DNA from: a virus
Strand: one strand, 5' to 3'
Virus record (IMG/VR): IMGVR_UViG_3300045988_154040
Length of the DNA: 64,000 nt
Shown here: positions 16,022 to 53,670 of the stretch, one piece after another
Layout: each line of letters begins with the position of its first letter
How positions within the stretch are numbered: position 1 is the stretch's first letter
Notes under the pieces: generated by a model
Databases searched by the model: none
What the model was told of the DNA's origin: nothing
Seen by the model: the letters and a program-made list of their open reading frames with translations, nothing else
Program-made: the position numbers and the translations under genes

Positions 16022-16057
16022 AAAAAAATAAGCGTCCAACCGGGCGCTTATTTTTTT
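16022..16057. terminator. bidirectional intrinsic terminator
   Basis: Stem AAGCGTCC (16030-16037) / GGGCGCTT (16042-16049). A7 on the left and T7 on the right. Confidence 0.65.
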
Positions 16058-16266: not shown

Positions 16267-16300
16267 AGAGCAACCACTGACCTGGTTGTTCTTTTTTGTT
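16267..16300 (+). terminator. plus-strand intrinsic terminator inside the minus-strand block
   Basis: 10-bp stem AGAGCAACCA (16267-16276) / TGGTTGTTCT (16283-16292) followed by TTTTTGTTTT. Confidence 0.6.
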
Positions 16301-16430
16301 TTAAATTTTACTTTGCGAATTGAAGTTTCTGTCTAATAATAAAGTTATTCAAGTTTTTAAAACAATCTTTAATCAAATCAATTATATTAAGAAGATTACC
16401 TATCAAGTTCCCGGCGCTGACACACCGGGT

Positions 16431-16712
16431 TTAATATTTAAGTTTTTCGTTAATAATTTTGGTCAACCGCTGATGTTCTTCTTTAATAATAATAATAGCT
16501 TCACTTAATTCATAAGTTTTTTTCTTAAGTTTACGTCTTGTAAGTTCTTCTACAGCCGCATGAATAGCCGCAGGAAGCGTACCATAATATCCCAAATCTC
16601 TCCATTTGACATATTCTCTAGTTTTCGTTTTGAGTTTAGTTCCTGTATCTTCTCTTAAGATATATTGACATGGGTCAACATCAATATATAAATTTTCATA
16701 AACATGAATCAT
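16431..16712 (-). CDS. hypothetical protein
   Basis: 93 aa, coding-like composition. A GC-rich hairpin CCCGG..CCGGG (16410-16429) lies at its 3' end. Confidence 0.45.
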   Translation of the reverse strand: MIHVYENLYIDVDPCQYILREDTGTKLKTKTREYVKWRDLGYYGTLPAAIHAAVEELTRRKLKKKTYELSEAIIIIKEEHQRLTKIINEKLKY

Positions 16713-16728
16713 TATTATTTCTCCTTTT

Positions 16729-17220
16729 TTATCTAATTAATAAGGAACTTGTTTTTCTTAAAGGCCCAACACCTTTAATTTTTTTTACTTTGGCATCAGC
16801 CAATAATTTTTTCCTATCTAATTTTAAAGTAGCAGGAACTTTTTCAAAATATTTTTTTGGCACGAGAGATTCATCCACTTCTCCTAACTGTTCTGCTCCA
16901 TTTTTTAAAGTGATAGTATAAATATCACCGCCGCATTTTTTTGTACCTGTAACTTCCATAGCTTCTTTAAGAGCTTTTTTTAAACGGTTCATAGCGTTTT
17001 CTACTGTTTTCTGCCTATCTTCCAATCTGACTTTTTCCTTTTTAATAGCTTCGATTTTACTTTCGTATTCCTTAATTACGTATACATATTTTTCTGCCTT
17101 ATCATCTAATTCGCCTCCCATTCCTTCTAAAGTATCTTTTAATACTTCTGAATCAGGTTCATCCTCCAACATAATCATAAGTTTGAGCATATCCCCCGTA
17201 ATTTCTCTTAAACTTCCCAT
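16729..17220 (-). CDS. Gp157-like coiled-coil protein (Sipho_Gp157 family-like)
   Basis: 163 aa. The N-terminal pattern ITGDMLKLMIMLEDEPDSEVLKDTLEGMGGELDDKAEKYVYVIKEYE plus a long coiled coil is typical of that family as I remember it. Confidence 0.45.
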   Translation of the reverse strand: MGSLREITGDMLKLMIMLEDEPDSEVLKDTLEGMGGELDDKAEKYVYVIKEYESKIEAIKKEKVRLEDRQKTVENAMNRLKKALKEAMEVTGTKKCGGDIYTITLKNGAEQLGEVDESLVPKKYFEKVPATLKLDRKKLLADAKVKKIKGVGPLRKTSSLLIR

Positions 17221-20822: not shown

Positions 20823-22094
20823 TTACTTTAATCGTATAAGAACAACACCAGAGCCTCCGGGGCCACCAGCCTTGGCAGTTCCATAAACGGCTCCGCCGCC
20901 TCCGCCTCCGCCTCCGCCAGTGTTGGCAGCACCTGCGTTGCCCGTGCCATTATGTGCCCCGCCTGCACCTCCTCCGCCTGCACCTCCAGCGCCAGGATTG
21001 CTGCGTGAAACTCCACCACCTCCTCCGCCTCCAGCATATAAAGTATTTCCAGCTTCTCCAAAGGCCCTTGTGGTATATCCCTGACTTCCAGTACCAGCAC
21101 CGTCTGCATATCCATTGTCGCCAGCCCTTATGACTGGTCTTGATTCCAGGTCATTATATCCTCCGTCCCCTCCCCTGGAGCCGCCATTTCCGCCATATCC
21201 TCCACTAGCCCCATCTCCGCCTTTTCCACCATTTGCCGTGCATAAGACAATGCCTCCTCTTGATACCGATGTTGTCCCACCCGTGCCACCTGGGCCGTTA
21301 ATAGCTGTGTTTCCCCCGCCTCCGTTTCCGATGACGCAATTCATTATCTGGCCAGCAGCCACGCCTATGTTAAGAGCTGTGGCGGTGTACCCACCTCCAC
21401 CGCCGCCTCCACCTTGCTCATAGGCATTACCCGTAAACCGGTATCCAGCACCCCCTCCGCCTCCTCCGCCTACACAGAAAATATCAATTGAATTGTATCC
21501 TGCGGGGATAGTGTAATTTTGTGTAAAATTAATACTAATAGTTTGAATAGTACCTGTTCTAACAGTAGCTTTTAATTGTTCACCTAATAATTCCCCATTA
21601 GAAGTCACACAATAAGAATAACAGATAAAATAATAAGTGGTATTTAAAGCTGGTAAAACTAAATTAACCTGAGATACAGCAGATGGGTTTTGGTTACTCC
21701 CTACTCCCTTGTACGCTTGTGTACCACTATTTATAGACGGATAAGAACCAGTCTGATATTTAATATACACTCCGCTATAAGGTCGACCTGTTTGTACTTG
21801 AGGATTAGTCCATTGAGCTACAATATTTCTTCCACCAGATAAAGTTAAAATAAAATTACTAATATTGTTGACTTCAAGTTTTCCAGCCTCTTTTTCTTTA
21901 GGGTTAGTAGTATAAAAAGTTTGATTTTTCAATACATGCTGACTATTAGCATTTCCAGTAAGTTTTAAAGTTCCTACTTCAATATCATCTTGAAGTGAAC
22001 CTATAAATTTAAATCCTTCTAATACTTCTGCTGGGGTTGTATTTAAATCATCAGGTATACCTCCCCCAGTTGGGAAACGGTTTAGTACTGCCAT
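20823..22094 (-). CDS. glycine-rich protein (N-terminal beta-rich domain plus ~220-aa poly-Gly/GGxGG domain)
   Basis: 423 aa. FCVGGGGGGGAGY...GGGGGGGGYTA...GGGGGGGGGAVYG..GSGVVLIRLK. Local GC is far above the genome background. It resembles Gly_rich (ALK/LTK-GRD-like) domains from memory. Confidence 0.55.
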   Translation of the reverse strand: MAVLNRFPTGGGIPDDLNTTPAEVLEGFKFIGSLQDDIEVGTLKLTGNANSQHVLKNQTFYTTNPKEKEAGKLEVNNISNFILTLSGGRNIVAQWTNPQVQTGRPYSGVYIKYQTGSYPSINSGTQAYKGVGSNQNPSAVSQVNLVLPALNTTYYFICYSYCVTSNGELLGEQLKATVRTGTIQTISINFTQNYTIPAGYNSIDIFCVGGGGGGGAGYRFTGNAYEQGGGGGGGGYTATALNIGVAAGQIMNCVIGNGGGGNTAINGPGGTGGTTSVSRGGIVLCTANGGKGGDGASGGYGGNGGSRGGDGGYNDLESRPVIRAGDNGYADGAGTGSQGYTTRAFGEAGNTLYAGGGGGGGVSRSNPGAGGAGGGGAGGAHNGTGNAGAANTGGGGGGGGGAVYGTAKAGGPGGSGVVLIRLK

Positions 22095-33344: not shown

Positions 33345-33641
33345 ATGAGTAACAAATATCAGACTATTAGAGAAATTTACATTGACCTTTACATCCGTAA
33401 TAAAGCTATTGTAAGGGCCAATAAAAAAGAAAAACCAGAGGACTTTCCTATTATTAAGGTAAACGGGAAACGGCTTATGCAGTTGTCCAGATTAAATTTT
33501 TTAAGGAGGAAAGAAATAGATAATGATTTTTCTAATGGTTTGCTAACTGATAAGGGATATGTGGAAGAAATGACTATTTGCCAATATATCAGTTATCAGA
33601 TAACAAATACGGAACATTCACAAAAAATTTTATTTGTTTAG
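33345..33641 (+). CDS. hypothetical protein (lone plus-strand gene in the island)
   Basis: 98 aa. AAGGAGGAATAATATTT precedes the ATG. Confidence 0.5.
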   Translation: MSNKYQTIREIYIDLYIRNKAIVRANKKEKPEDFPIIKVNGKRLMQLSRLNFLRRKEIDNDFSNGLLTDKGYVEEMTICQYISYQITNTEHSQKILFV

Positions 33642-33716
33642 TAATTTTTTACTAATAAAATCACGTCTTTCAGATTTTTTGTCTGTCTAGTTTTTTCTTA
33701 ATGTTTTATTATCTGT

Positions 33717-33801
33717 AAATTGTGTTTAGTGCTTCCCAAAACGTGCAGTATTTAAAAACAGATTTAGTACTGTACGATTACACAAGCACTAAACACAATT
33801 T
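33717..33801. other. 18-bp perfect inverted repeat with a 49-nt loop
   Basis: AAATTGTGTTTAGTGCTT (33717-33734) / AAGCACTAAACACAATTT (33784-33801). The loop holds an inner 7/8-bp stem GTGCAGTA..TACTGTAC. Confidence 0.7.
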
Positions 33802-34319
33802 GCCCCTACAATTTTTATAGTAATTTGTAATGGTTCAACTGTATATGCATTTAAGATAAAAGCATAATAAAAACCGCCAATGTCTGACAATTATGTAGTA
33901 TAGAATACTATGTTTAGTAGTTTCGATAGTGATAATATAGACTAAAAGGCCGGGAAAGGGCCTTTAAATGCGTTACAAGGCATGTTGACATAACATTGGC
34001 AGAGGTTCAATGGCCTATATATAATAATAGATTATAAATAAAAGGATGTGATAATGTGTGAGGTTATGTAAACCAATTATTAGCACTATCAATGGGTGAG
34101 TGCCAAAAGGTAAACAAATGATAACAATAAATAGATATGGATTATGGACAGTGATTTACATTTTGAGATTGGCGATTGTAAATATAGATTCATAATTCAT
34201 AATAGATGATAGTAAGCAAGTGCTGACTATATGGAGAGGGCAGAGGTACATATAATATAATATTATATAATATATAATATGAAAATGAAAATAGGAATTA
34301 TTATCGTTATGTTTCATGT

Positions 34320-35330
34320 GAAATATGCATGAATGTGTGATTGGTGGGAGAGCAAGAGAACGTGAGAATATGGATACGAGAGCGTACAACGTGGTTAGCA
34401 GAGTGTGTGTGGGTGGATGTGGGAAAACGTGTGGCAGAGGGTGTAAGGTCGGTGTATATGGATTGTACGTGATTGTAAGATGGATGGAGAGGGAAGGAAG
34501 GAGTGGGAGAGAGGATAGACGGAATGTGCAGCGAGGGTGGGAAATATGGGAAAAGGATTGAGAGGTGAGGAGAAATGGGGAAAATGGAAATGAATGGATA
34601 GGGATATTGGGGATGTGGTGAGGGAATGTGAGGGGAAAGAGTAGGGATATGGTGAGAGTGAGAGGATGAAATGGGAGGTGAGAGAACATATATATCGAGG
34701 GTTCGCCATTACCCTTATCAATATTTATATATATAATGTGACGCATTTGGTTACGAGTGGAACCGGTATCATTCGTATAAAAACCATTAGTATATCTCGA
34801 TTTTTGAGGTATTTTCATAGGTAAAAATGACAAAAGCGTCTATAATACATATTATGCACACTTTTTATTCTGATTTCCCGACACTGCGACATGTGGCTTT
34901 CCCCCCAGTTTTGGCAATTGTCAGATAATTCACTCAAACCCGGGGGTACTTTCAGACAATTCGGATATACGATTTTTGAAAAAGGCCATTAGCTGACCAA
35001 TCACGAACTCTCCAACCATCACCCTCCCCATCCCTCTTACTATTTATTCATCTATCTCCATCCCTCCCTCCATCTCCCTTATATATATTATATAATATAT
35101 CTCTACCCTCCACCCATCCCTCCCAATCTCCCCTATCTCCCTCCCCTATACTTTCCCCTACATTCTCAATTTCCCTCCCCAAACCATCATTTTCTCCTAT
35201 ACTTTCGCACCTTCTTCACCTCAACTTTTCCCGTCTCGATTGATAACATTCCGAATTTCTCACAATCCCCATTTCATCCCTTTATTTTTAGCCATGCACC
35301 TTTCCTAATCTCAACTATTTAATTGACCTT
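34320..35330. other. strand-asymmetric element: C-depleted arm, ~320-bp spacer, G-depleted arm
   Basis: No C occurs at 34533-34686 (154 nt) and C is sparse from about 34320. No G occurs at 35006-35206 (201 nt) and G is sparse to about 35330. The two arms share reverse-complementary blocks. Confidence 0.85.
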
Positions 35331-35560
35331 TCAGCAACCCCAAAAATCAGAAAAAATCTCAAAAAAATTTTTCACACCATCCAAAATTTTAGCTCGCTAC
35401 ACCCCATTCTGATTTGAGCAGATTGTGCCTGAAATACACCCTGTTACAACCTCATATACGGCATATCTGACCGTTTTCTGTCTTATCGTGACCAATCCTC
35501 CATTTCTCATATTTGAACGCTTCTACTCTCTTGTACTCGTTCATATTTTTTAAAAATTAA

Positions 35561-35597
35561 ATTTAAAAAAGAGAACCGCTGATTTCGATTCTCTTTT
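35561..35597 (-). terminator. intrinsic terminator ending the 43.6-35.66 kb minus-strand gene run
   Basis: Stem AAAAGAGAA (35567-35575) / TTCTCTTTT (35589-35597). A T-rich tail follows on the minus strand. Confidence 0.5.
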
Positions 35598-35658
35598 AAG
35601 AAGAAATAGTTATAAAAAATGGTAAGGTATACTATCATTTTTCTTTGAATCTTTTCTA

Positions 35659-36216
35659 TTATAATTTATCAGTAGAAGTGTAACCGTTTTCTCTGTCCCA
35701 CACTTTTGTGTAGTGGTTGAACACGCCGATATATGCCGCACAATTGGTAGTATAGATTGCATCAATATCAAAACTATCATCTTCATCTTCATTATCTCGA
35801 CAAGTCAAATCACTTTTGTAGGTGTTTAAATCCATCCATCCATAACTATTTAATCTTCCGTTTATTCCAATGCGCCGTAGCACATTAGTACTGGAAATTG
35901 GGGTATTTTTCATATCTGTATTAAGCATTACTAAATACATACTTTCGCTTTTTGTCTCCACAATCATTCCTGACTTGAGGAAATCTTTGGGGGTGATATC
36001 TTCTTCTTTTTCTTTTGGAGGGGCTGTATCTGTGAACTGAATATGCTCTACTCTGGGGATTATCATTTTTCCGCTGGGGAGTTTTACCAAGGCAACAGGA
36101 TATTGGCCCAATGAATCTTCATCATAATTGGTGCTAAAGCCGCAAAACTCGCCGTCTTTGAAAAGTACGTATCCTAATTTTTCATCCCAATATTTACCAC
36201 AACATTTACCTTCCAT
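35659..36216 (-). CDS. hypothetical protein (paralog of 37634..38050)
   Basis: 185 aa. The C-terminal part (GMIVETKSESMYLVML...YTKVWDRE) parallels TGMFVKITDGRIYFVL...YVKIWDRD. Confidence 0.45.
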   Translation of the reverse strand: MEGKCCGKYWDEKLGYVLFKDGEFCGFSTNYDEDSLGQYPVALVKLPSGKMIIPRVEHIQFTDTAPPKEKEEDITPKDFLKSGMIVETKSESMYLVMLNTDMKNTPISSTNVLRRIGINGRLNSYGWMDLNTYKSDLTCRDNEDEDDSFDIDAIYTTNCAAYIGVFNHYTKVWDRENGYTSTDKL

Positions 36217-36672: not shown

Positions 36673-36957
36673 TTAATTTTTACTTGCTAACCCAATTTTT
36701 TTCATTTTTTTCATAAATAACTTCATTTCATAATACGTAAGTCCAACACAGGTATTGCCAATTTTCTTATTATCCATCAAATTTTTATCATATGACTGAA
36801 TAATATGTTTACCTGATTTTTTATATGATAAATCAACACATTGTGTATACTTATATTTTTTATCATCTCTTTCGTAAGAAGCTCCGTATTCATTTTCTGA
36901 TACTTTTGTAAATCCAATTTCTTTTAACCTATCATCAATACTCTTAAATAATTTCAT
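36673..36957 (-). CDS. hypothetical protein
   Basis: 94 aa ORF. Confidence 0.4.
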   Translation of the reverse strand: MKLFKSIDDRLKEIGFTKVSENEYGASYERDDKKYKYTQCVDLSYKKSGKHIIQSYDKNLMDNKKIGNTCVGLTYYEMKLFMKKMKKIGLASKN

Positions 36958-37178
36958 TATATATTCCTCTTTCTTTCTCTAATTATAAAATTCTTCAAAA
37001 TTACTCTTTAAATACTTCTTTTGCTGTCTATAAAATCGTTATGGGAAATATAAATTGAAACTGGAAGAACTTTGCCATTTTCACCCAAAAATCCATATCC
37101 CAAAGTCGCTCTTATCGCATCAGTTTTTTTATAAAAATCCCAAAGTTGTTAAATATAAAAAATAAATAAAGGAGAACT

Positions 37179-43683: not shown

Positions 43684-43712
43684 ATAATAACAGAATATAA
43701 TATAAATGTCAA
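43684..43712 (-). promoter_or_regulatory. sigmaA-type promoter (TTGACA-17-TATTAT), first promoter of the minus block
   Basis: Minus strand reads TTGACA (43712-43707), a 17-nt spacer, then TATTAT (43689-43684). Confidence 0.55.
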
Positions 43713-43926
43713 TATGTAATTTTTTATTATATATTTTATATTATATGTATATTAATTAAATATATGTATAATAATTATATAATATTATAAAATATATAAA
43801 TATAATATAATTAATAATAATTTATATTTAATTAATATTGTTATTACTAATTCCCCAAAATATTTGTATTGTTATTTTAGTTTTTTTGCAAGCAAAAAAA
43901 CCAAATAACGAAAACAAATATTTTTT

Positions 43927-44154
43927 CAATTGATATAATTAATATTTTTTATAAACATAAATTCACAAATTTCTTGGTTTTATATATAATAATAGTTATC
44001 TATAAACAATTACTAATATAAATTTATATAACTCTTTCCACTTCGTTACAAGAGTTATATAAATTTCTAAAGTAATTGTAATTATATCTAATTATTATTA
44101 TATATAAAACAGAAATTTATAAATTTATATAAAAAATATTAATTATATCAATTG
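43927..44154. repeat. ~230-bp AT-rich imperfect palindrome
   Basis: Outer arms are 27/27 bp perfect: CAATTGATATAATTAATATTTTTTATA (43927-43953) / TATAAAAAATATTAATTATATCAATTG (44128-44154). Inner arms are 17/17: AAATTTATATAACTCTT (44020-44036) / AAGAGTTATATAAATTT (44050-44066). Arms between them are largely complementary. The centre loop is 44037-44049. Confidence 0.85.
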
Positions 44155-44402
44155 GATAGGGGTATTTTTTATATAATAATTATATAATTAATAATATATA
44201 ATATATATTATTTATATTATTAAATATATTATATATTATTATATTTTATAATAATATTTATATATTATATTTTATATATAGTATATAGTATTACCTCCGA
44301 ATTTTTTCTTATACCGTTATTTTTTAAAAAATTTTTTATGTAATAAAAACAATTAATAAAATTAGTATAAAATGTCTTTATTTTTTAATATTAAAATATA
44401 TC

Positions 44403-44467: not shown

Positions 44468-45970
44468 ATGCAAAATAGTAGAAGAAAAATATTTAAGATT
44501 TCTACAGAGAGATTAGCTTCTAACAATTGGGATATTAAGTTAGACCAAAAATTAGCTGTAAGGTTAGATGAATTAGTAGATTTATTTGATAATCAGTCTT
44601 TTAGGTTGTTGGATATTATTTCCAAAGCTTACAAATCCAATCTTACAGATAAAGTGCTGGCAGTAGAAATATCTAAGAAAAAAGATTATGCCAGGGCTAC
44701 TTCTCCAAAAGGCATTTATGTAAATGGTTTTAATTTCCAATGGTTTGTAGGAACTACAGGAGGATTGAAAAATGAAACTATTTTATTTGTTCGTTCTGAC
44801 CTTTTAGAAGAATTAGATAAAAGATGTGAATGCGGCAGAAAAAAAGATTATAAACTGGTTCCTGCAAAGTACGAAGCTTATAAATCTCTTACTTGTTCTG
44901 CATCTTTAGAAATTGTGGAACCTAGAGATGTACTTGTGGTTTCTGATTGTTTTGTTGATTTTTATGACAATGTAATCAATATAGATGATACAAACAATGA
45001 CGAACCAGAAGTAACAATATTGGAAAATATTTTACTTGAAAACAATGGTAGTGATGGTTTAAATTTATGTACACCAGAATATATGCAGAGAGTAGCAGAA
45101 AAACTTAATTTAGATTATATTCCTGCTGGTGGCTGTTTAAGAAATGCTTGGCTTAAGGGAATGTTGTATGTGTTTGATATTCTTGATTTTGCCGAGAAAA
45201 TAGCTCAAACTTACGAAGTGAAAGATATTTGGGGACATATTCATGATATTCGCAATGTGGATATGATTATTACAGAATCCAGTTTAAAGATTTGGGATAA
45301 TTATGATAGTTGGGAAGATTATCATAGCAATTATATAAAAAATGGCTATCGTTTCGCCATGACTAAAGTTACACCTAAAGTTTTGGATGATGTAAGAGAA
45401 ATAAATTATCAGTACTTACAATCTTACGAATTGACAGATGAAGATATTAAAGAGTTGGCTAAACCTACTGTTGATTGGCTTAAGCAATCTTTGACTGGCG
45501 ATTATGAACAAACTTTAAAATTTCTGGGAATAAGTGAAAAAACAAAGAGTAATGATTATGCACAAGCATTATATCTTAATCCAGAAATGATGAAAGACCC
45601 TTATGTAATTGACAGAATTAATAAAATGATAAAGAAAAAAATCAATAATGCTAAGATTGGTAAATTATTGGTTAATGGAAATTATCAGCTTGTAAGTGGC
45701 GACCCTTATGCTTTAATGCAACATGTTTTTGGGTTAGAAGTTACAGGTCTTTTAGAAGCAAAAGAAGTTTATTCCAAATATTGGAATGATAAAGAAGATG
45801 CAGAAGAATTAGTATGTTTTCGTAGTCCTATGACAAGTCATAACAATATTCGTAAAATGAAAAGAATTAATAATGATACTGTGAATTATTGGTATCGTCA
45901 TATGGATACTATATTTATTATTAACAACAAAGATACGTTTTGTATGGCTATGAACGGATGCGATTTTGAT
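44468..45970 (+). CDS. single-subunit YonO-like (two-barrel) RNA polymerase, exon 1
   Basis: 501 aa ending ..FCMAMNGCDFD, followed by an in-frame TAG. Joining to exon 2 restores NGCDFDGD (compare the universal beta-prime NADFDGD motif). Confidence 0.7.
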
Positions 45971-46403
45971 TAGTAATATAGTCCTTTGTTTTTTAACAAA
46001 GCAAGTGGTGAACCATCAGAGTATGGGTGTATAGACTACTTTTTATTTATAAAAAAGGAATTGTAGGAAATGACAATTTGAGTCTGTGCTAACAGGGAAA
46101 GCCTAAACTTAATTGTAGATAAGCATGGTAATCCTGTGGGAAATAAAATAAAAATGTTTGCTTGTTGTAAAACAGAAAACAAACAAAAATATTTTTATTG
46201 GAAACCTTAAACGACTATCCCTTGGTCTGGTCGCAATATAAATACAGACAATAGGAGTAGGGCCATAGCGATATGGTGAGTGAAAACCTCTTAAATCGAA
46301 GTGCCACTGAACAAATATTGCAATTTAATATTTGTGAAAGATATAGTCTATTCCCTCCAAGCAATATTGGAGTTAAAGTACTGGGAAACCAGGGGTATTA
46401 AAG
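45971..46403 (+). mobile_element. group I intron 1 of the RNAP gene (no ORF)
   Basis: The 5' exon ends in T of GAT and the intron begins TAG. The intron ends ..GTATTAAAG with a terminal G at 46403. Contains GGTGAACC..GGGTGT (46007-46030), GCTAACAGGGAAAGCCTAAAC, TAAACGACTATCC (46208-46220) and AGATATAGTC (46339-46348). Confidence 0.8.
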
Positions 46404-46685
46404 GGAGATGCAATTTATTCTACAAATAATTCAGTATTGTTAAGAAAATATAAGGAACTATTGGCTATTCAGTGTGTACAAAGAAAAGCAGAAAAACAAA
46501 TTGTTACTAGGTCTATGATAAAAAAGAGCAATTACAAAGGATTGGGAAATGGGGTTGGTAAAATTACCAACGATGTATCCAGTATGATTGATATTCTCTT
46601 TGGGTTACAAAAGGGTACAATTGAGTACGAGACACTTTACAAACGTATTCTATGTGGTCAGCTATTTCAGCAAAATGAATTGGAT
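46404..46685 (+). CDS. YonO-like RNA polymerase, exon 2
   Basis: In-frame extension upstream of the tracked ORF gives GDAIYSTNNSVLLRKYKELLAIQ.. (94 codons). It ends ..QQNELD followed by TAA. Confidence 0.7.
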
Positions 46686-47165
46686 TAACCTAAAAAATTG
46701 AGTCCAATTAAAAATCGGTGAACCTAGAAATCTAGGGTGTTTATTCTACGTGCAGGAGCGGAATTGTAGTAAATGACAATTTGAGAATAAGCTAACAGGG
46801 AAAATCTTAATAATAAAAATATTAATATAAAATAATAAAAAAAGAGGTGAAAAATAAATGAAAAGAAAAGATTTAACAAATAATATTTATGGATGTTTAA
46901 AAGTATTATCTATAAATGAAGAAGAAACAAAACAGCAATTTAAAAAAATTATTATTAAGACAATCCTGTGCCAAGCTTAAAGAGAAATCTTTTTGAAGGT
47001 TAAACGACTAAGACATACGACCTAAGTTTTATAAAAAATATGGTTATGAAGTCTGTAGCTTTAAGGTGAAATTCCTTATTGCGAAGCGCCGATTGCCATT
47101 AGAATATTAATGGTAATGATATAGTCTATTCTCTATGGTGACATAGAGTAGTAAAGAAATTAAAG
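46686..47165 (+). mobile_element. group I intron 2 of the RNAP gene (with truncated ORF)
   Basis: Same family as intron 1. GGTGAACCTAGAAATCTAGGGTGT (46717-46740), TTAAACGACTAAG (47000-47012), GATATAGTC (47118-47126). Ends ..AATTAAAG with a terminal G at 47165. Confidence 0.8.
46858..46980 (+). pseudogene. 40-aa remnant of an intron-encoded homing endonuclease
   Basis: A strong SD (AAAGAGGTGAAAAATAA) precedes the ATG. MKRKDLTNNIYGCLKVLSINEEE.. resembles the N-termini of phage HNH/NUMOD endonucleases. The ORF then runs into the ribozyme core and stops. Confidence 0.4.
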
Positions 47166-47882
47166 GGTATTATTGCTAAAGATATGCCAAAGAATTGGTA
47201 TATGAGGAATCATTGTAAAACAGAAATTGATAAAAAAATAGTTGCTGATAAAAAACCATATTATTTCATGTATAATTATCCTACTATAAAAAAAGATTAT
47301 GATAATTATATTAAACATAGTAATAATAAATGTTTGATGTTATATGGATGTACCGTAGAAGAATTAGAAGCAAAATATTTGGAGAATCCAGAAATTTTTT
47401 CTGAGAACTGTAAAGAGTTTTTATATTGGTATCATGCACAAATGCCAGTTAATTGTTCTCCATCTACAATGAATCGTTTATGTTGGTATATTGAATCTGA
47501 GTTTAATGGATATGTCACTCAATTAAAGAATCAAAATTTTGACTATACTTTTTTAAAGAATAATAAAGTTGTTCGATATCCAAAAGCAAAAAAAGAAGAA
47601 ATTGAAAAATTAGAAAAAGAATATGTACGCAGAATTAAAAACTTTAAAATAATTGCCAAAGAAAATAATTTATCTGCTGAAGAAGCTAATAAAAAGACAG
47701 AAGCATTACAACAAGAATTTAGAGATGAAGCAATAAAAATTTGTTCTAATAAATGGCAATTGATGAATATAGTATTAGATTTATGCTATGGAAAGAATAA
47801 GAACAAATATTTTTGTTGGGCTGTTATTGGAGATTTAATAATTGAAAAATTAAAAGAAGATGGAGAGAAAGAAAATGAATAA
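47166..47882 (+). CDS. YonO-like RNA polymerase, exon 3
   Basis: In-frame GIIAKD precedes the tracked MPKNWY... 238 codons. The spliced product totals 833 aa. Confidence 0.65.
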   Translation, partial: GIIAKDMPKNWYMRNHCKTEIDKKIVADKKPYYFMYNYPTIKKDYDNYIKHSNNKCLMLYGCTVEELEAKYLENPEIFSENCKEFLYWYHAQMPVNCSPSTMNRLCWYIESEFNGYVTQLKNQNFDYTFLKNNKVVRYPKAKKEEIEKLEKEYVRRIKNFKIIAKENNLSAEEANKKTEALQQEFRDEAIKICSNKWQLMNIVLDLCYGKNKNKYFCWAVIGDLIIEKLKEDGEKENE

Positions 47883-48815: not shown

Positions 48816-49169
48816 ATGGCAAAGAAAGTAATCAAGGTAACTGACATGACTTCCGCAGAACTGGTAAAGGCTATTGCGGCAAAATCTGGTGCATCTCAGG
48901 TGCAGACAAAGGCGGTTCTGAGCGCTATGGGCGAAGTTTGTAGAGAGTGTGCCGCCGCAGGTAAGAAGTTCAATCTGTTTGGCCTGGGAAAGATGGGATT
49001 TGCTCAGATTAATGGTAAGCCAGAGAGAAATGGTGTTATCAATCCTAGAACCGGAGAGAAGGGCCTGCTTCCTGAAACTCCTTCTTATACCAAGCCTGTA
49101 TTTAAGGTTTCTAAGAGTTTAGTGGATGAAATTAAGGAATCTACCAAGGGCCGCCCATTTGTAAAGTAA
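48816..49169 (+). CDS. HU/IHF-family DNA-binding protein
   Basis: 117 aa. KFNLFGLGKMGFAQINGKPERNGVINPRTGEKGLLPETPSYTKPVFKVSKSL matches the HU beta-arm pattern (GFG.F.v..r.ar.GrNP.TGe.i.i.....p.Fk). Confidence 0.75.
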   Translation: MAKKVIKVTDMTSAELVKAIAAKSGASQVQTKAVLSAMGEVCRECAAAGKKFNLFGLGKMGFAQINGKPERNGVINPRTGEKGLLPETPSYTKPVFKVSKSLVDEIKESTKGRPFVK

Positions 49170-49228: not shown

Positions 49229-49729
49229 ATGGCAAGGACAGGAGCATCCAAAGCGAATGCGTTGACTTTGAGAGAAATCTCTGACCTTATAGCCGTTTCA
49301 GTAAAAAAACAGGGAAAAACTGTTACTGCTGAAACGGCTAAACTTTGCTATTTGGCTTTAATTGAAATTATAGCTGACGAACTTAAACGTAATGGAAAGT
49401 TCGTTATCACTAACATAGGTAGTTTGGAAACATATATGTTTGGTGGATTTATGCGAAACAGTTATAATGTTCAGACTAAAGAACATAAATTAGAAAAAGT
49501 GCCAGAAACAGTTGTAGTAAAGTTTAATCCGTCTGATTATATAAAGGCATATCTCAATAATAGAGAAATACCTTTAGGAATGAGGCGGAGAAGCAAAGAA
49601 GTTGAAAAAAAGGCCAGAGTAAGCAAAACAAAAAAAGAATTACTTAAAAAAGAAATGGCTGTAAAAAAGAAGAAAAAATACGAAAAAATTGTTCAACCTA
49701 TAGAAATTGATGTGGAAGAGGAAGATTAA
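49229..49729 (+). CDS. second HU-like protein with Lys-rich C-terminal extension
   Basis: 166 aa. The N-terminal two-thirds are HU-like (LIEIIADELKRNGKFVITNIGSLE..VVVKFNPS). The C-terminal tail reads KKARVSKTKKELLKKEMAVKKKKKYEK. Confidence 0.5.
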   Translation: MARTGASKANALTLREISDLIAVSVKKQGKTVTAETAKLCYLALIEIIADELKRNGKFVITNIGSLETYMFGGFMRNSYNVQTKEHKLEKVPETVVVKFNPSDYIKAYLNNREIPLGMRRRSKEVEKKARVSKTKKELLKKEMAVKKKKKYEKIVQPIEIDVEEED

Positions 49730-49887: not shown

Positions 49888-50796
49888 ATGGAAGTGATTG
49901 CGATGGCCACAGTTGTTAAAAAAATTCGTCCCATAACTGATTCTTATTGTATTAGGTGCAATAGACAGTATCCAATAGAAAATTTTTACAAAAGTGATAA
50001 TATTCATCACACTACAGGAGTAATGCCTTATTGTAAAAATTGTACTAAGGAAATGTATCAGGACAATTTAAAAAGATTTAAAGATATAAGAAGTGCTTTA
50101 TGGGTGACATGCAGTGAAGTTGGAATACCCTTTATGGAAAAAGTCTATGATAATCTTATGGAAAAAGTTAAAAAAGCTCGTGATGAAAAAGTTTTAACCA
50201 GTACATATAACTATTGGGGAAATTTTATTTCTAGTTATATGGGATTAAAGAAAAAAACAGATAAATGGGATAGTTTTGGAGTAACAGATGTAGATAAATC
50301 CGAAGCTATTTTAGATATTAGTCAAGAAAAATTAAGAAAAGAAAAACTCAAACAGTTTATTTTAGACTGGGGAGAACAAGATGAAGATGATTATGCGTAT
50401 CTTGAATATCGGTGGGATTTTTATACAGAAGATATAAACCTTACTCCTGCTCAGGAGAGTTTGTATAGAAAATTATGTATTTCAGAGTTAGATTATCGTA
50501 AAGCAAAAGAAAATGAAGAAAGCGGAAAAGAACAGCAAGAATCTATTCTTAAGCTTATGAAAACATTAAAAATTGATAATTTTACTCAAAAGAAAGAAAA
50601 AACTCTTACAGAACAAATGCTGGAAAAACAGATTTGGGAGATTGAGAACACCACTCCGGCTGAATGTGAAGATTTGAATAAATACAAAGATTTTTGTAAT
50701 ATTGAATCTGATTGGTTTAAGTATATTGTTTCTGCTGTTAAGAATTTGATTGCAGGAACGAAAGAATATCCTCTAATTCCCAGAAAACGTGATTAG
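49888..50796 (+). CDS. hypothetical protein, positional candidate for small terminase
   Basis: 302 aa directly upstream of terL. N-terminal CxxC..CxxC and a charged coiled-coil C-terminus. The call rests on position only. Confidence 0.3.
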   Translation: MEVIAMATVVKKIRPITDSYCIRCNRQYPIENFYKSDNIHHTTGVMPYCKNCTKEMYQDNLKRFKDIRSALWVTCSEVGIPFMEKVYDNLMEKVKKARDEKVLTSTYNYWGNFISSYMGLKKKTDKWDSFGVTDVDKSEAILDISQEKLRKEKLKQFILDWGEQDEDDYAYLEYRWDFYTEDINLTPAQESLYRKLCISELDYRKAKENEESGKEQQESILKLMKTLKIDNFTQKKEKTLTEQMLEKQIWEIENTTPAECEDLNKYKDFCNIESDWFKYIVSAVKNLIAGTKEYPLIPRKRD

Positions 50797-50810: not shown

Positions 50811-51362
50811 ATGAATGAAAATGAAGAAATAGAATTTAAACAACCTACTATAACAGAATTAATTGAAGAACGTAAAAGAAAAAATGAAGCAAAGAAAAAG
50901 AAAAATAAAAAAATACCTTATGAACAAAGAAGAAAAAATATTATAGAATGGACTACTTTTTATAGACGTAATTGGAATCTTTATGCAGTGCATAGATTAA
51001 TGTTGTCTCTATACCCTTTTCAGCATATTATGCTTTATTTAATGGGTATAAGTAGTACATTTTTTGCTATATGTAGTCGAGGTTTATCAAAAACCTTTAT
51101 TGTGGCATTAGGTGCGTTAATTCATGGATTGCTTTATCCTTATGCAGAAGTGGTTATTACTTCTTCTACTATTCCACAGGCCAAGAAAATGGTAGATAAG
51201 AAAATGGAGAATGAATTGTGTAAAAAACTTTCTCCATTGTTACAATATTATTATGAACATGAAGATATTAAATTTTCATATAGTGATAATGAGATAAAAG
51301 TTGAAATTAAACCAACAAATTCAACTATTTTAGTACTTCCTTGTTTGGACAGTGCTAGAGGT
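50811..51362 (+). CDS. terL: terminase large subunit, exon 1
   Basis: Walker A-like FAICSRGLSKTF. The exon ends ..CLDSARG (GGT at 51360-51362). The tracked ORF then reads 30 more codons into the intron. Confidence 0.7.
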
Positions 51363-51640
51363 GGAAACATTAAGTTGCACAACTCGCCTCTCTGGTTGGT
51401 GACAATCAGTAAAAATAAATTGGGAAAGAAACCTGGAAACCTGAAATGGTAATCAGAATGGAAGGATACGTGTAATAGCGTATTCACATGCAGAGCGTAG
51501 ACATTGAACCTGTTTGAATCAGAATATAATATGTCCAAGAGTTCCCAACCCTTTAAATATAAAGGTGAAAAGGTACGCCGACCTTGCTAGAAATACAATA
51601 GCAAGAACTATGGGATAAAAAGCCCATAGGATAACATTTG
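51363..51640 (+). mobile_element. small ORF-less intron in terL (group I-like, different subtype)
   Basis: 278 nt. Joining T51362 to G51641 (preceded by G51640) gives ..DSARG|ERATFLIYEE, restoring the usual spacing before Walker B (LIYEE). It lacks the GATATAGTC core of the other five introns. Confidence 0.55.
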
Positions 51641-52393
51641 GAACGTGCAACTTTTCTTATATATGAAGAATGTAGACTTTTGAAAAAGACTATTATAGAT
51701 AGTGTTTTTCAGAAAATGGCCCATCCACGTCAAGCTAAATTTTTAACTTTATCAGAATATCAAGATGAAGATGGAAAACCTTTATCTCGATGGTTAGAGG
51801 AATGTAAATCTGTTTATATTACTTCTGCTAGATTCAAGATAGAATGGTTTTGGACGGAATTTAAAAAAGTAGTTCAACAATGTATGATATCTAATAAGCA
51901 TAAATATAATTTCTTTGCAGGAAATATATTTTTAGCAATATTATATGGTTTAAAAACATGGCAAGATTATTTTCATGCCAAAGAATTTGATAGTGATATA
52001 GACCATAGAACAGAGGATTTAAATGAAATGATAGGGGAAGCAGATGGAGCTTTCTTTTCTATGGAATCTTTTAAAAAGAACCAAATTATACGTAATGCTT
52101 TTAAACCTCCTACTATATTGGATTTATATTCTAATGTAGATTTAGGAAACAGACCCAAGAAAGATGGAGAAAAACGATTAATATTCATTGACTATGCTTT
52201 TGCGAATACTACATCAAATTCTAAAAATGATAACAGTGTTATTGGCTGTATGTCTGTTATTTTTAGAGATGATGGGAAAACCTTAAGGGAAGTAGATTAT
52301 ATAGGTACTCACCCCGCAGGAGACAGTATAGGATTTAACTTGAAAATTAGAGAATTTTTCTTTGATTATCAAGCTGACTATATTGTATTGGAT
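51641..52393 (+). CDS. terL: terminase large subunit, exon 2
   Basis: ERATFLIYEECRLL (Walker B). First nuclease acidic motif RLIFIDYAFANT. Ends ..DYIVLD followed by TAA. Confidence 0.7.
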
Positions 52394-53670
52394 TAATTCT
52401 GAGGTCCACTTTTATGGTGACATAAAATGAATAAATGTGTTGAATTGCTGGAAACCCCTAAAGCCACATGAACCACAACGTAAGTATGAAATAAGACTAA
52501 GCGTGATGGTGACGAAAGTAGAAAAAATCATGTGGATGGCATAAGGTTAAATCCTAAGTGCTTTAAAATGGGCAATCAGCCGCCAAGCTCTGAATAGGAG
52601 AAGGTTCAACGACTATCCCGCAAGGGAGTACACTGCAAGCGATTGGCAGTGGAAGTGGCACACATCTTATGAAATTAAGATGAAGATATAGTCTGCTCTA
52701 TATGGAAACATATAGTATCTAACGTGTAGCGGCGTTTTCTTAACTTATAAAAAGTAAATAAGACAGAGGGTAGCTCCCTTTTCTTGTACTGCAATACAGG
52801 ATTATTATTTACTTTTTATCATATCTTTTTGCAGAAAGGTTTAAGGTAGAAATTATGAAAATTTGGGAAGTAAATTCTAGTAAGCGTTTTAATTTTGGTT
52901 GTATTTATTTATGGACTAATCTTATTAATGGTAAACATTATGTTGGACAGACAGTTAATTTTTATCAACGTATTCAACGATATAAGAAAGGTTTAATTAA
53001 TTCTTATATGAAAGAAGATATTGATAAATATGGTATGGAAAATTTTAAAGTTGAAATATTGGAAAGGATAGAAGATATTTCAAATGAAGATTTCCTTACT
53101 GAAAGAGAGCAATATTGGATGGATTATTATCAGTCTTATGATTTAGAAAAAGGCTATAATATATTTGATGTTGCTGGCAATGTCTGTTATTTAAAACGTA
53201 GTGATACTATTAAAGAAAGATTTTGTGGAGAAGGAAATGGAATGTATGGTAAACATCATTCTGATGAATGGAAACAAAATCATTCTGATTGCGTAAAAGG
53301 TTTGTGGAAAAAAGAAGAATATAGAAAAGTTCAGACAGAAAGGATGCAAGGAGAAAATAATCCTATGTATGGGGTATCTTTAGATGGTGAGAAAAATGGA
53401 ATGTATGGTAAACATCATTCTGATGAAACCAAAAGAAAGATAGCTGAAAGTAAAATAGGGAAAACTCATGCACCTACTCATTTTAAAAGAGTGAGATGTG
53501 TTGAAACTGGAAAAATCTATAATAGTCAGAGTGAAGCCGCACAAGAGTATGGCATAACTCCGGCCGCAATCAGTTTAGTTTGTAAAGGTAAAAATAAGAC
53601 AGCCAAGAAAATGCATTGGGAATTTGTAGACTAATCTCAAAAATAGTAATAGAAACAATACAAGACTCAG
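52394..53670 (+). mobile_element. group I intron in terL carrying a GIY-YIG homing endonuclease
   Basis: Begins TAA after a GAT codon, like the RNAP and dnaE-A introns. Core TTCAACGACTATCCC and GATATAGTC (52685-52693). The 3' boundary is unresolved within about 53630-53680. Confidence 0.7.
52855..53634 (+). CDS. GIY-YIG homing endonuclease (I-TevI/Seg-like) with NUMOD3 repeats and C-terminal HTH
   Basis: GCIYLWTNLINGKHYVGQT, EREQYWMDYY, repeated NGMYGKHHSDE(W/T)K, C-terminal IYNSQSEAAQEYGITPAAISLVCKGK. Confidence 0.85.
   Translation: MKIWEVNSSKRFNFGCIYLWTNLINGKHYVGQTVNFYQRIQRYKKGLINSYMKEDIDKYGMENFKVEILERIEDISNEDFLTEREQYWMDYYQSYDLEKGYNIFDVAGNVCYLKRSDTIKERFCGEGNGMYGKHHSDEWKQNHSDCVKGLWKKEEYRKVQTERMQGENNPMYGVSLDGEKNGMYGKHHSDETKRKIAESKIGKTHAPTHFKRVRCVETGKIYNSQSEAAQEYGITPAAISLVCKGKNKTAKKMHWEFVD

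What the first reader, a model, noticed from the sequence alone, without database searches (positions are those of the whole stretch)
34320..35330. Unexplained element: a C-free tract and a G-free tract on the same strand, sharing reverse-complementary blocks in non-hairpin order
Seen in the sequence:
- The plus strand has no C at 34533-34686 (154 nt), and C is very sparse from about 34320.
- After a ~320-bp mixed spacer, it has no G at 35006-35206 (201 nt), and G is sparse to about 35330. G-richness therefore switches strand.
- GC content is far above the rest of the genome.
- Block pair 1: GGATGAAATGGG (34664-34675) is the exact reverse complement of CCCATTTCATCC (35268-35279), with similar flanks.
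- Block pair 2: GAATGTGAGGGGAAAGAGTAGGGA (34624-34647) matches the reverse complement of TCCCCTATACTTTCCCCTACATTC (35142-35165) at about 20/24.
- The order is 1-2...1'-2', which is pseudoknot-like or parallel. It is not the 1-2...2'-1' order of a simple hairpin.
- The G-rich strands contain textbook G-quadruplex motifs, for example the minus-strand GGGAGGGATGGGTGGAGGG at 35124-35106.
- All ORFs called here are low-complexity artefacts.
- The element lies in a transcriptionally insulated island.

Inference only: it could be a structured non-coding RNA, a G4 or H-DNA-forming replication, packaging or recombination site, or a template with deliberately skewed nucleotide demand. I know of no described phage element with this architecture.
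Basis: seen in the sequence. Interest (0 to 1): 0.75.

Follow-up and report, generated by a model that had tools for sequence, protein, structure and literature searches.

The report
Skew-switch element at phage packaging site
A conserved, non-coding 1.1-kb element of a gut-bacterium phage has a G-rich arm with no C and a C-rich arm with no G, either side of a fixed 319-bp core; in a sequenced relative the only fixed end of the virion DNA lies at the edge of that core, so it is most likely an unusual DNA-packaging start site.

Summary
The compositional observation is real and far beyond chance. C is absent at 34533-34686 and G at 35006-35206, the longest such runs in the window. GC is 45-48% against 30% for the window.

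The window is a ~100-kb virulent Enterocloster bolteae siphophage. The same architecture occurs in 23 other isolates and gut metagenome contigs. In 12 complete close copies the arms drift in sequence: at least 165 and 155 substitutions, none to the excluded base. The core stays 318-321 bp. A distant clade (RNA polymerase 64-66% identical) keeps the skew switch, with 4-6% of the excluded base.

Canonical G4 motifs are not conserved. No Rfam family matches, and no reading frame is conserved.

The key external fact concerns phage PMBT24. Its published PhageTerm "pac site", a single-strand peak from TruSeq reads of CsCl-purified virions, was made the start of its record. That position maps 2-10 nt from the inner end of its C-free arm (window about 34678-34689).

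Best reading (0.45): this is the packaging-initiation region, with arms selected for composition. Rivals are an R-loop or helicase-loading origin, a transcriptional insulator or ncRNA locus, and a recombination site. The architecture is undescribed.

The parts
33966..34246 (.). Left outer conserved non-coding block. It includes TTGACATAA, TATAATAGATTATAAATA and the hairpin TTAGCACT-N11-AGTGCCAA at 34080-34106.
   Evidence: Many invariant columns across 6 phages. Between-clade identity is 0.70, higher than in the arms. Only weak sub-threshold Rfam hits.
34247..34290 (.). Left AT-only island of overlapping TATAAT-like repeats (palindromic).
   Evidence: It is similar to the AT island inside the right arm (I1, I4, I12 and D5).
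34309..34326 (.). Near-palindrome ATGTTTCATGTGAAATAT. It is a perfect ATGTTTCACGTGAAACAT in the clade C contig L057.
   Evidence: ATGTTTCA is present in all 11 clade A/B homologues tested, 373-387 nt from the core in 10 of them (324 in L020). In the clade C contig L057 it lies only about 70 nt from the core.
34320..34686 (+). Left arm, with the G-rich strand as the + strand. It is C-sparse at 34320-34532 and C-free at 34533-34686.
   Evidence: C-free runs of 153-227 nt in 12 homologues. At least 165 substitutions, none to C.
34637..34652 (+). Sequence-conserved island inside the left arm, AAGAGTAGGGATATGG. It is related in inverted orientation to the island at 35142-35161.
   Evidence: Invariant AAGnGTAGGGATATGG across 6 phages. 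Single copy in the window.
34678..34689 (.). Position equivalent to the PhageTerm pac terminus of PMBT24 (record versions 1 and 2), at the left-arm/core junction.
   Evidence: PMC11035940. The record ends 2 nt after its C-free run. The paper's supplementary coordinates follow p = 99953 - r. Ungapped alignment of the junction.
34687..35005 (.). Central core (spacer) of mixed composition, 319 bp.
   Evidence: 318-321 bp in 12 complete homologues and about 315 bp in clade C. Within-clade identity is 0.95 against 0.83-0.89 for the arms.
34703..34715 (+). Invariant TCGCCATTACCCT, 15-17 nt inside the junction. It is preceded by the CATATATAT boundary motif at 34687-34695.
   Evidence: Invariant in 9-11 sequences. 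Unique in the window and in the PMBT24 genome. Hairpin pairs are not compensated.
34832..34866 (.). 34-nt imperfect palindrome AAAAGCGTCTATAATA-CA-TATTATGCACACTTTT, which carries two opposed TATAAT-like hexamers.
   Evidence: Conserved in all three clades, with one C-G to U-A covarying pair. The promoter-like match at 34827-34855 (+) overlaps it.
34909..34972 (+). Invariant blocks TTTTGGCAATTG, CAGAnAATTCAC and GGGGGTACTTTCAGACAATTCGGATATACGA. They contain two direct TCAGAnAATTC copies about 31-33 bp apart.
   Evidence: TTTCAGRCAATTCGTATATACGA is also kept in clade C.
35006..35330 (-). Right arm, with the G-rich strand as the - strand. On the + strand it is G-free at 35006-35206 and G-sparse to 35330. 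It contains an AT island at 35078-35105 and a conserved island TCCCCTATACTTTCCCCTAC at 35142-35161.
   Evidence: G-free runs of 175-238 nt in 12 homologues. At least 155 substitutions, none to G. The AT island is deleted in CB457P2.
35338..35392 (.). Three or four A-tracts phased at about 10 bp (CCCCAAAAATCAGAAAAAATCTCAAAAAAATTTTT...), predicted to form a static bend at the outer edge of the right arm.
   Evidence: A-tract starts at +4, +13/14 and +23/24 in all 12 homologues of both clades.
35396..35560 (.). Right outer conserved non-coding block.
   Evidence: Conserved across the clade A phages and CB457P1.
35567..35597 (-). Intrinsic terminator (12-bp stem plus T-run) that ends the leftward early operon before the element.
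   Evidence: CB457P2 has a different hairpin plus T-run at the same place.
33947..33965 (.). Weak GGCC-N7-GGCC hairpin at the left border, downstream of the small + ORF at 33345-33641.
   Evidence: Read. It is not reported by the terminator scan.

Best explanation
The element is the cis-acting packaging-initiation (pac) region of a roughly 100-kb, virulent, headful-packaging Enterocloster siphophage.

Architecture: a sequence-conserved 319-bp core is flanked by two arms of about 330-370 bp. The G-rich strand of each arm always runs 5' to 3' toward the core.

What is shown:
1. The architecture is unique in the genome. It is conserved in 23 relatives and maintained by selection on composition rather than on sequence.
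2. In the homologue PMBT24, the only sequence-specific virion DNA end reported by the authors lies at the left-arm/core junction.
3. The terminase genes are conserved between these phages.

What is inferred: terminase (a TerL of the T4-like Terminase_6 type, plus the adjacent 302-aa protein, perhaps helped by the two HU-like proteins encoded next to it) recognises the invariant core blocks and the bent right flank. It makes the first concatemer cut next to CATAT..TCGCCATTACCCT and then packages by headfuls.

What the arms do is not shown. My preferred inference is that they give the DNA on both sides of the cut special strand properties. The duplex is a stiff purine-rich/pyrimidine-rich tract with no G/C-containing palindromes, so it carries no sites for palindrome-recognising restriction or methylation enzymes. 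Each strand cannot form G-C hairpins on its own. After a cut or resection in the core, the 3'-ending strand on either side is G-rich, a polarity like that of telomeres or Chi sites, which would suit end protection or RecA-mediated recombination.
For: Composition:
- The base-free runs are the longest in the window.
- The arms are the only windows with skew of 0.8 or more and GC of 0.35 or more in the whole PMBT24 genome and in this window.

Conservation:
- Twelve complete homologues have a 153-227 nt C-free run, a 318-321 nt core and a 175-238 nt G-free run.
- Arm identity between clades is 0.56-0.57. There are at least 165 and 155 substitutions with none to the excluded base, against 26% to C and 20% to G in the core.
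- A distant clade keeps the skew switch around the same core motifs.

Terminus:
- PMC11035940 states that PhageTerm found one significant peak, on the reverse strand only, and that this pac site was made the start of the map.
- The library was TruSeq, from CsCl-purified virions, at 416x coverage.
- The record's ORF order matches the paper's numbering.
- The record ends 2 nt after the 215-nt C-free run. The earlier coordinate system starts 10 nt away.
- A random position would fall this close to the junction with probability of about 2e-4 (my arithmetic). A one-strand peak argues against a shearing hot spot.

Terminase and context:
- The window's TerL and putative TerS are 90-93% identical to those of PMBT24.
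- TerL hits Terminase_6N.
- The element is bracketed by terminators and has a conserved phased A-tract bend.
- The core motifs are single-copy.
Against: - The terminus evidence is one published analysis in one relative. I could not see the reads, the value of tau or the packaging direction.
- The element lies about 15 kb from the terminase genes. Classical pac sites (P22, SPP1, P1, Sf6) lie in or next to terS (my knowledge).
- The two-fold compositional symmetry is not expected for a unidirectional pac signal.
- I found no helical periodicity or repeated TerS-type motif array in the arms.
- Ends of metagenome contigs near the element are scattered rather than stacked at the junction.
- The CB phage records and many IMG/VR contigs break instead at the AT-only region upstream of the RNA polymerase gene.
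- Nothing in a duplex-recognition model explains near-absolute exclusion of one base per strand.
Confidence: 0.45

Rival explanations
1. Replication origin or priming zone. One version: transcripts entering each arm toward the core are G-rich and C-free, and form stable R-loops on the C-rich template that prime DNA synthesis into the core. A second version: the AT islands melt and the phage DnaB-type helicase and primase move outward on the G-free, C-rich, hairpin-free strands.
For: - The compositional two-fold symmetry fits a bidirectional process.
- The arms are 44-48% G on the non-template strand for inward transcription.
- TATAAT-rich AT islands sit upstream of the left arm and inside the right arm.
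- The phage encodes DnaB, primase, a Pol III alpha subunit, SSB, RecA, its own YonO-like RNA polymerase and a sigma factor.
- R-loop or G4 origins are known in ColE1, T4, mitochondrial DNA and herpesvirus oriLyt (my knowledge; titles).
Against: - The genome-wide cumulative GC skew of PMBT24 turns at 9189 (the AT-only divergent region) and at 51859. The element gives only a local blip.
- The right AT island is deleted in CB457P2.
- Promoter-like matches are no more frequent than in shuffles.
- No iterons were found.
- An origin does not by itself explain a one-strand end in virion DNA.
Confidence: 0.2
2. Transcription-level element. It could be a bidirectional insulator in which any RNA leaving the core is G-free, C-rich and free of start codons, making it an extreme Rho-loading (rut) tract. 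Alternatively it could be a locus for non-coding RNA(s) whose two arms pair into a long hairpin of about 200 bp.
For: - Outward RNAs would have 35-44% C, no G and no ATG, GTG or TTG for 175-238 nt.
- rut sites are defined by composition rather than sequence (my knowledge), which matches the pattern of conservation.
- If the whole element were a single strand, the minimum-energy fold pairs the left arm with the right arm (160-230 pairs) in all four homologues tested, on both strands.
- The core palindrome carries opposed -10-like hexamers.
- Terminators bracket the island.
Against: - No promoter is conserved across the clades.
- Folding energy is not better than in shuffles, z about -1.
- Arm-to-arm pairing is no better than for shuffled arms.
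- Core covariation collapses with a third clade.
- No Rfam family matches.
- The presence of Rho in the host was not checked.
- This reading does not explain the virion DNA end.
Confidence: 0.15
3. Site for recombination or end processing rather than terminase recognition. Possibilities are a target for the phage XerD-like tyrosine recombinase (as loxP lies near pac in P1), a strand-specific nick site as in T5, or a cluster of Chi-like signals that protects ends.
For: - The core contains conserved inverted repeats.
- PMBT24 encodes a XerD-like recombinase, RecA, an ExoV-like nuclease and Gam.
- A peak on one strand only is also what a nick might give (inference).
- G-rich strands point 3' toward the core on both sides.
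Against: - No recombinase-type site (two 11-13-bp arms around a 6-8-bp spacer) stands out; I did not run a formal scan.
- The known Chi sequences of Firmicutes contain C (my knowledge), and the arms have none.
- No experiment bears on this reading.
Confidence: 0.12

Closest known systems
Headful pac regions of tailed phages (SPP1 pacL-pacC-pacR, P1 pac, P22 pac)
   Same: - A cis region where terminase makes the first, sequence-directed cut, giving one fixed end in a fraction of virions of a permuted genome, as reported for PMBT24.
- Binding regions flank the cut.
- Bent DNA lies at one side. The SPP1 and P1 details are from my knowledge.
   Different: - About 10 times larger.
- 15 kb from the terminase genes.
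- The arms are conserved in base composition only and have opposite strand skew, a feature not described for any pac site I know of or found.
Herpesvirus pac1/pac2 packaging signals in the 'a' sequence
   Same: A cleavage/packaging signal in which G-rich runs flank an A/T-rich element and can form G-quadruplexes (PMC13595911). Herpesvirus terminase is related to phage terminases.
   Different: - pac1 is tens of bp long with short G runs on one strand. Here the arms are 330-370 bp with a strand switch around a 319-bp core.
- Canonical G4 motifs are not conserved here.
R-loop or G-rich-primed origins (ColE1 RNA II, T4 ori(uvsY) and ori(34), mitochondrial CSB II, herpesvirus oriLyt)
   Same: A G-rich non-template strand lies downstream of AT-rich, promoter-like DNA. 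This composition favours persistent RNA:DNA hybrids (my knowledge; papers listed).
   Different: - No demonstrated promoter.
- The global GC skew does not turn here.
- The paired, convergent arrangement with base exclusion has no described counterpart.
Rho utilisation (rut) sites
   Same: Defined by C-rich, G-poor, unstructured RNA rather than by a consensus sequence (my knowledge). Outward transcripts of both arms fit this in the extreme.
   Different: - Known rut sites are about 60-90 nt and tolerate G. Here the runs are 150-240 nt with zero G, and they are paired in mirror orientation.
- No evidence of transcription.

Membership tests
Phage headful pac site | A sequence-specific terminase cut that yields a unique DNA end in part of the virion population of a circularly permuted genome. 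| not testable with these tools
   Reported for the homologue PMBT24 by PhageTerm (PMC11035940). I only mapped that position onto the element. No reads are available for the window's phage.
Phage headful pac site | Located within or adjacent to the small-terminase gene (P22, SPP1, P1, Sf6 type). | tested here: not met
   Putative TerS is at 49888-50793 and TerL starts at 50844, about 15 kb from the element. In PMBT24 the genes are at 14112-16930 and the site is at position 1.
Phage headful pac site | Repeated or phased protein-binding motifs flanking the cut. | tested here: inconclusive
   One conserved island sits in each arm, in inverted orientation. Two TCAGAnAATTC copies lie in the core, and there are phased A-tracts. 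There is no consistent periodicity in the arms.
Herpesvirus pac1-like G4 packaging signal | A conserved G-quadruplex motif next to a T-rich element. | tested here: not met
   The number of canonical motifs per arm varies from 0 to 3 among homologues. L012, L008 and CB457P1 have none in the right arm, even with loops up to 12 nt.
R-loop-primed or bidirectional replication origin | A promoter feeding a G-rich non-template strand, and a genome-wide skew or orientation switch at the site. | tested here: inconclusive
   The G-rich strands and AT islands are present. Promoter matches are at chance level. The right AT island is dispensable. The cumulative GC-skew extremes lie at 9189 and 51859, not at the element.
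Rho-dependent terminator (rut) | A C-rich, G-poor, untranslated RNA segment of about 80 nt or more, downstream of a promoter. | tested here: inconclusive
   The composition criterion is met for outward transcripts. Transcription, and Rho in the host, were not tested.
H-DNA or intramolecular triplex | A homopurine/homopyrimidine mirror repeat. | tested here: not met
   The purine-rich strand carries 17-22% T throughout. No mirror repeat was apparent. The repeat tool reports direct and inverted repeats only.
Known structured RNA (Rfam 15) | A match at the family gathering score. | tested here: not met
   No hit in 33700-35700, even at E of 5 or less, apart from four weak sub-threshold matches.
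Protein-coding gene | A conserved reading frame. | tested here: not met
   Frames shift between close relatives. Arm lengths differ by amounts that are not multiples of 3. There are no start codons on the G-free strands and no family hits.

The most novel reading that the evidence does not exclude
The arms are a composition-coded cis signal rather than a sequence-coded one. By excluding one base from each strand, and switching strand at the core, the phage ensures two things. Any single-stranded or cut form of this locus exposes hairpin-free strands. The 3'-ending strand on both sides of the core is G-rich. On this reading the element would be a phage "telomere/Chi-like" module that couples the terminase cut to end protection, to RecA-driven recombination-dependent replication, or to R-loop priming. 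That would be a new class of element recognised through strand composition.
Probability: 0.2. Interest if true: 0.8.

Novelty: new variant of a known kind. Interest (0 to 1): 0.6.

Why it matters
- If the element is the pac region, it shows that a packaging start signal can be built largely from strand composition. Hundreds of base pairs are kept free of one base while the sequence drifts. This type of constraint is invisible to motif- or alignment-based searches.
- It gives an experimentally tractable case, since the phages (PMBT24 and the CB phages) and their host are cultivable. One can ask what terminase, recombination or replication proteins read in such DNA.
- It is a practical marker for orienting and delimiting genomes of this family of gut phages.
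- It also warns annotators that the ORFs called inside it are artefacts.

Tried and rejected
- **Rfam.** Searches at gathering score and at E of 5 or less found nothing relevant.
- **tRNA.** None found.
- **Coding potential.** Rejected.
- **Reverse-complement blocks and arm pairing.** Not above composition-matched shuffles.
- **Whole-element fold.** The topology is a giant hairpin, but the energy is not unusual.
- **Helical periodicity of G or A in the arms.** None is consistent.
- **G4 motifs.** Not conserved.
- **Core RNA structure.**
  - Two-clade covariation looked promising, more so on the minus strand.
  - It rests on a single split, and most of it vanished with clade C.
  - A 7-bp helix in the outer left arm with one compensatory change remains unexplained.
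- **Iterons and tandem repeats.** None in the element, and none in the gap near the helicase genes of PMBT24.
- **Genome-wide GC skew.** It points to the AT-only divergent region, not to this element.
- **ORF98 (33345-33641) as a partner protein.** It is absent from PMBT24 and several others.
- **Host or prophage origin.** No match in 185,579 species genomes.
- **Wider distribution.**
  - Extra motif scans of IMG/VR gave only chance hits.
  - The clade C element finds nothing among phage isolates.
  - The more distant YonO-type phage TR-TP1 has no such element in its last 30 kb.
- **Contig ends in metagenomes.** They are scattered, so uninformative about termini.
Full report
**1. The observation**

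- The + strand has no C at 34533-34686 (154 nt: G 72, A 55, T 27) and only 15 C in the 213 nt before that.
- After a 319-nt stretch of mixed composition (34687-35005), the + strand has no G at 35006-35206 (201 nt: C 88, T 70, A 43) and only 8 G in the next 124 nt.
- These are the longest C-free and G-free runs in the window. The other long runs are AT-only tracts near 43.7-44.3 kb.
- GC is 0.45-0.485 against 0.302 for the window, and GC skew swings from +0.90 to -0.98.
- At the window's base frequencies, such runs are expected about 1e-7 times or less per window.

The compositional observation is therefore solid.

**2. Parts of the observation that do not hold up**

*Reverse-complement blocks.*
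- Block pair 1 is an exact 12-mer reverse complement. Block pair 2 is only 16/24 without a gap.
- Because one arm is made of G, A and T and the other of C, T and A, such matches are expected. The best ungapped reverse-complement match and the longest exact match are reached in 13% and 15% of composition-preserving shuffles.
- The best arm-to-arm duplex energy (about -93 to -111 kcal/mol for 150 x 150 nt) equals that of shuffled arms, z from -1.5 to +0.4.
- Block 1 is not conserved even in CB473P1.
- Block 2 does coincide with a short conserved island in each arm: AAGnGTAGGGATATGG on the left and TCCCCTATACnTT on the right, in inverted orientation.

*G4 potential.*
- G4Hunter signal is the highest in the window.
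- Canonical G4 motifs are few: one with loops of 7 or less, on the minus strand.
- Their number varies from 0 to 3 per arm among homologues. They are not the conserved feature.

*Coding and RNA families.*
- The ORFs called here are artefacts. They have no family hits, frames shift between close relatives, and the G-free strands contain no ATG, GTG or TTG.
- No Rfam family matches.

**3. What the window is**

The region matches six Enterocloster bolteae phages: CB473P1, CB473P2, CB473P3, CB457P1, CB457P2 and PMBT24.

PMBT24 is a published virulent siphovirus of 99,962 bp (PMC11035940). Its genome map has this layout:
- A leftward block of small early genes runs toward the element.
- A rightward late block starts with a YonO-like single-subunit RNA polymerase. 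It is annotated "RNA-dependent RNA polymerase", and SPbeta yonO is a 25% identical relative. HU-like proteins, terminase, portal and capsid genes follow.
- A long leftward block of replication and recombination genes follows: Pol III alpha, DnaB, primase, SSB, RecA, ExoV-like nuclease, Gam and a XerD-like recombinase.

The element lies inside a non-coding island of about 2.9 kb between the end of the early block and the start of the replication block.

On the right it is bounded by a good intrinsic terminator for the early operon at 35567-35597 on the minus strand. CB457P2 has a different hairpin plus T-run at the same place. A weak hairpin lies at 33947-33965 on the left.

**4. Conservation**

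*How the copies were found.* Motif scans and walks through neighbouring genes found the same architecture in:
- three IMG/VR contigs;
- eight human-gut metagenome contigs;
- six contigs of a more distant clade, whose RNA polymerase is only 64-66% identical.

Nothing was found in 185,579 bacterial and archaeal species genomes.

*The twelve complete close copies*:
- The C-free run is 153-227 nt.
- The core is 318-321 nt.
- The G-free run is 175-238 nt.

*The left arm as a whole.* It is about 373-387 nt long in 10 of 11 copies.

*Rates of change.*
- The arms evolve faster than the core. Within-clade identity is 0.83 and 0.89 for the arms against 0.95 for the core. Between clades the arms are 0.56-0.57 identical.
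- A minimum of 165 substitutions in the left run includes none to C. A minimum of 155 in the right run includes none to G. In the adjacent core, 26% of minor states are C and 20% are G.
- Defining the runs by absence of a base biases this count somewhat. Even so, run lengths of 150-240 nt in every copy cannot arise by drift.
- What is maintained is therefore composition, not sequence.

*The distant clade.* The arms are strongly skewed but not base-free: 28-34% G with 4-6% C, and the mirror image on the other side. The skew profile around the shared core motif is the same as in the close copies. Strong strand asymmetry is thus the family-wide trait. Absolute exclusion is its extreme form in the PMBT24/CB group.

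*Uniqueness.* The two arms are the only windows with GC of 0.35 or more and absolute skew of 0.8 or more in the whole PMBT24 genome and in this window.

**5. The core**

The core carries invariant, single-copy blocks:
- CATATATAT at the left junction;
- TCGCCATTACCCT;
- a 34-nt palindrome with opposed TATAAT-like hexamers;
- TTTTGGCAATTG;
- two TCAGAnAATTC copies about three helical turns apart;
- GGGGGTACTTTCAGACAATTCGGATATACGA;
- TAGCTG and CGAACT.

The palindrome and the TTTCAGRCAATTCGTATATACGA block persist in the distant clade.

RNAalifold on two clades suggested a fold with compensated helices, more so on the minus strand. That support comes from a single phylogenetic split, and most of it disappears when the third clade is added. 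I do not claim a structured RNA.

Outside the right arm, three A-tracts phased at about 10 bp are conserved in both close clades, which predicts a static bend.

**6. The decisive external fact**

*What the paper says.*
- PhageTerm found a significant peak on the reverse strand only.
- The authors called the phage pac-type, with a circularly permuted genome.
- The DNA came from CsCl-purified virions. The library was TruSeq (shearing plus ligation), at 416x coverage.

*How it maps onto the element.*
- The GenBank record's ORF order matches the paper's numbering, for example TerL = ORF36.
- Joining the record's end to its start shows that it ends 2 nt after a 215-nt C-free run and begins CATATTTTGAGGGTTCGCCATTACCC.
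- The paper's supplementary tables use a reverse-complemented coordinate system, p = 99953 - r, whose origin is 10 nt away.
- Both origins map to window 34678-34689, at the left-arm/core junction.

*What it implies.*
- By my arithmetic, a position chosen independently of the element would fall this close to the junction with probability of about 2e-4.
- A shearing hot spot should give peaks on both strands.
- So a real, one-sided DNA end, or less likely a strand-specific nick, is associated with this junction.

*Terminase.* The paper remarks that other TerL proteins show little similarity. That is explained by gene interruption. The window's TerL is 90-92% identical to PMBT24's but is split by two insertions. 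The adjacent 302-aa putative TerS is 93% identical.

**7. Mechanism**

My best-supported explanation (confidence 0.45) is that this is the packaging-initiation region. Terminase recognises the conserved core and bent flank, cuts at the left junction and packages by headfuls.

The steps stand as follows:
- Shown: the architecture, its conservation, its uniqueness and its coincidence with the published terminus.
- Inferred: which proteins bind, the direction of packaging and the role of the arms.

The arms' symmetry means that on both sides the G-rich strand runs 5' to 3' toward the core. This has several consequences:
- A cut or resection in the core leaves G-rich 3' strands on both sides, a polarity like that of telomeres or Chi sites.
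- Outward-moving helicases, or outward transcripts, would travel on or consist of G-free, C-rich, hairpin-free strands.
- Inward transcripts would be C-free and G-rich, which favours R-loops.
- A single-stranded copy of the whole element folds, in any register, into an arm-to-arm hairpin of about 200 bp with the core at its tip, although this fold is no more stable than chance.

Each of these would select for composition rather than sequence. I cannot tell them apart with sequence data.

**8. Rivals**

*Replication origin (0.20).* It fits the symmetry and the AT islands, but three results count against it:
- The genome-wide cumulative skew of PMBT24 turns at the AT-only divergent region (9189) and at 51859.
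- The right AT island is deleted in CB457P2.
- Promoter-like matches are at chance level.

*Transcriptional insulator, Rho-loading tract or ncRNA locus (0.15).* It fits the composition-only conservation, but it has no conserved promoter and does not explain the DNA end.

*Recombination, nick or end-protection site (0.12).* It is possible, but nothing tested here bears on it.

**9. Against the pac reading**
- The element is 15 kb from the terminase genes.
- The terminus evidence is a single analysis in one relative.
- The arms show no periodic binding motifs.
- Metagenome contig ends near the element are scattered.
- Many assemblies break at the AT-only region upstream of the RNA polymerase gene instead. 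That is probably an assembly effect, but fixed ends there cannot be excluded.

**10. Novelty**

The PMBT24 paper marks only a "pac-site" at the top of its map and does not describe the arms. Literature searches found G-rich packaging signals only in herpesviruses (pac1; PMC13595911), and G-rich R-loop origins in plasmids, mitochondria and herpesviruses.

I know of no pac, cos or ori region built from paired, strand-switched, base-excluding arms around a fixed-length core. I rate it a new variant of a known kind (a packaging start region), with a 0.2 chance that it represents a new, composition-coded class of element. Interest: 0.6.

Noticed in passing
window 50844-54250: The large terminase gene is in three pieces (50844-51362, 51641-52393, 53666-54250) that together match the intact PMBT24 TerL at 90-92% identity. 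The second insertion starts with a group I intron (52385-52715, Rfam RF00028, 96 bits). The first insertion, about 280 nt, has no Rfam hit. This probably explains why the PMBT24 paper found 'no similarity' to the TerL of the CB phages.
   Followed up: partly
window 44468-47879: The YonO-like single-subunit RNA polymerase gene is also split into three pieces (44468-45970, 46398-46685, 47151-47879). The two insertions, about 430 and 465 nt, are absent from PMBT24 and have no Rfam match at E of 0.1 or less. They may be unrecognised introns.
   Followed up: partly
window 43711-43846 and 44150-44293: Arrays made almost only of A and T (118 nt with neither G nor C) lie at the divergent point between the leftward early genes and the RNA polymerase gene. 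The equivalent point in PMBT24 (9189) is the genome-wide minimum of cumulative GC skew. Five CB phage records and at least six IMG/VR contigs begin or end within a few hundred nt of it. It could be an origin or unwinding region, or an early promoter region, and it acts as an assembly breakpoint.
   Followed up: partly
window 48816-49166 and 49229-49720: Two HU/IHF-type DNA-binding protein genes (Pfam Bac_DNA_binding for the second) sit just upstream of the putative small and large terminase genes. They are possible accessory factors for packaging-site recognition.
   Followed up: no
window 33345-33641 (+): This is the only plus-strand ORF of the island (98 aa, no family match). It is 94-99% conserved in CB473P1, CB473P3, CB457P1 and L015. 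It was not detected in the stretches held for PMBT24, CB457P2 and the other contigs searched, so it is not an obligatory partner of the element.
   Followed up: yes
window 34383-34391 with 34464-34472: An inverted repeat, CGTACAA ... TTGTACG, lies in the C-sparse outer left arm. One compensatory change is seen between clades (C-G to A-T), and a second 3-bp helix lies outside it. It hints at a base-paired structure in RNA or single-stranded DNA, but this is unexplained.
   Followed up: partly
window 20823-22094 (-): The second-strongest C-rich G4Hunter signal in the window (20.9-21.5 kb, CCGCCT-type repeats) is simply the coding strand complement of a 423-aa glycine-rich protein gene.
   Followed up: yes
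window 36909-37022: A 114-nt G-free run lies in an AT-rich stretch (GC 0.22-0.25) that overlaps the end of a small minus-strand ORF and the following intergenic DNA. It is the third-longest G-free run in the window.
   Followed up: no
L052 529-1635 (-), IMG/VR contig 3300045988_130590: In the distant clade, a 368-aa ORF sits among the early genes about 9 kb upstream of the RNA polymerase gene. By eye it looks like a transposon-type (TnpB-like) gene. I did not check it.
   Followed up: no
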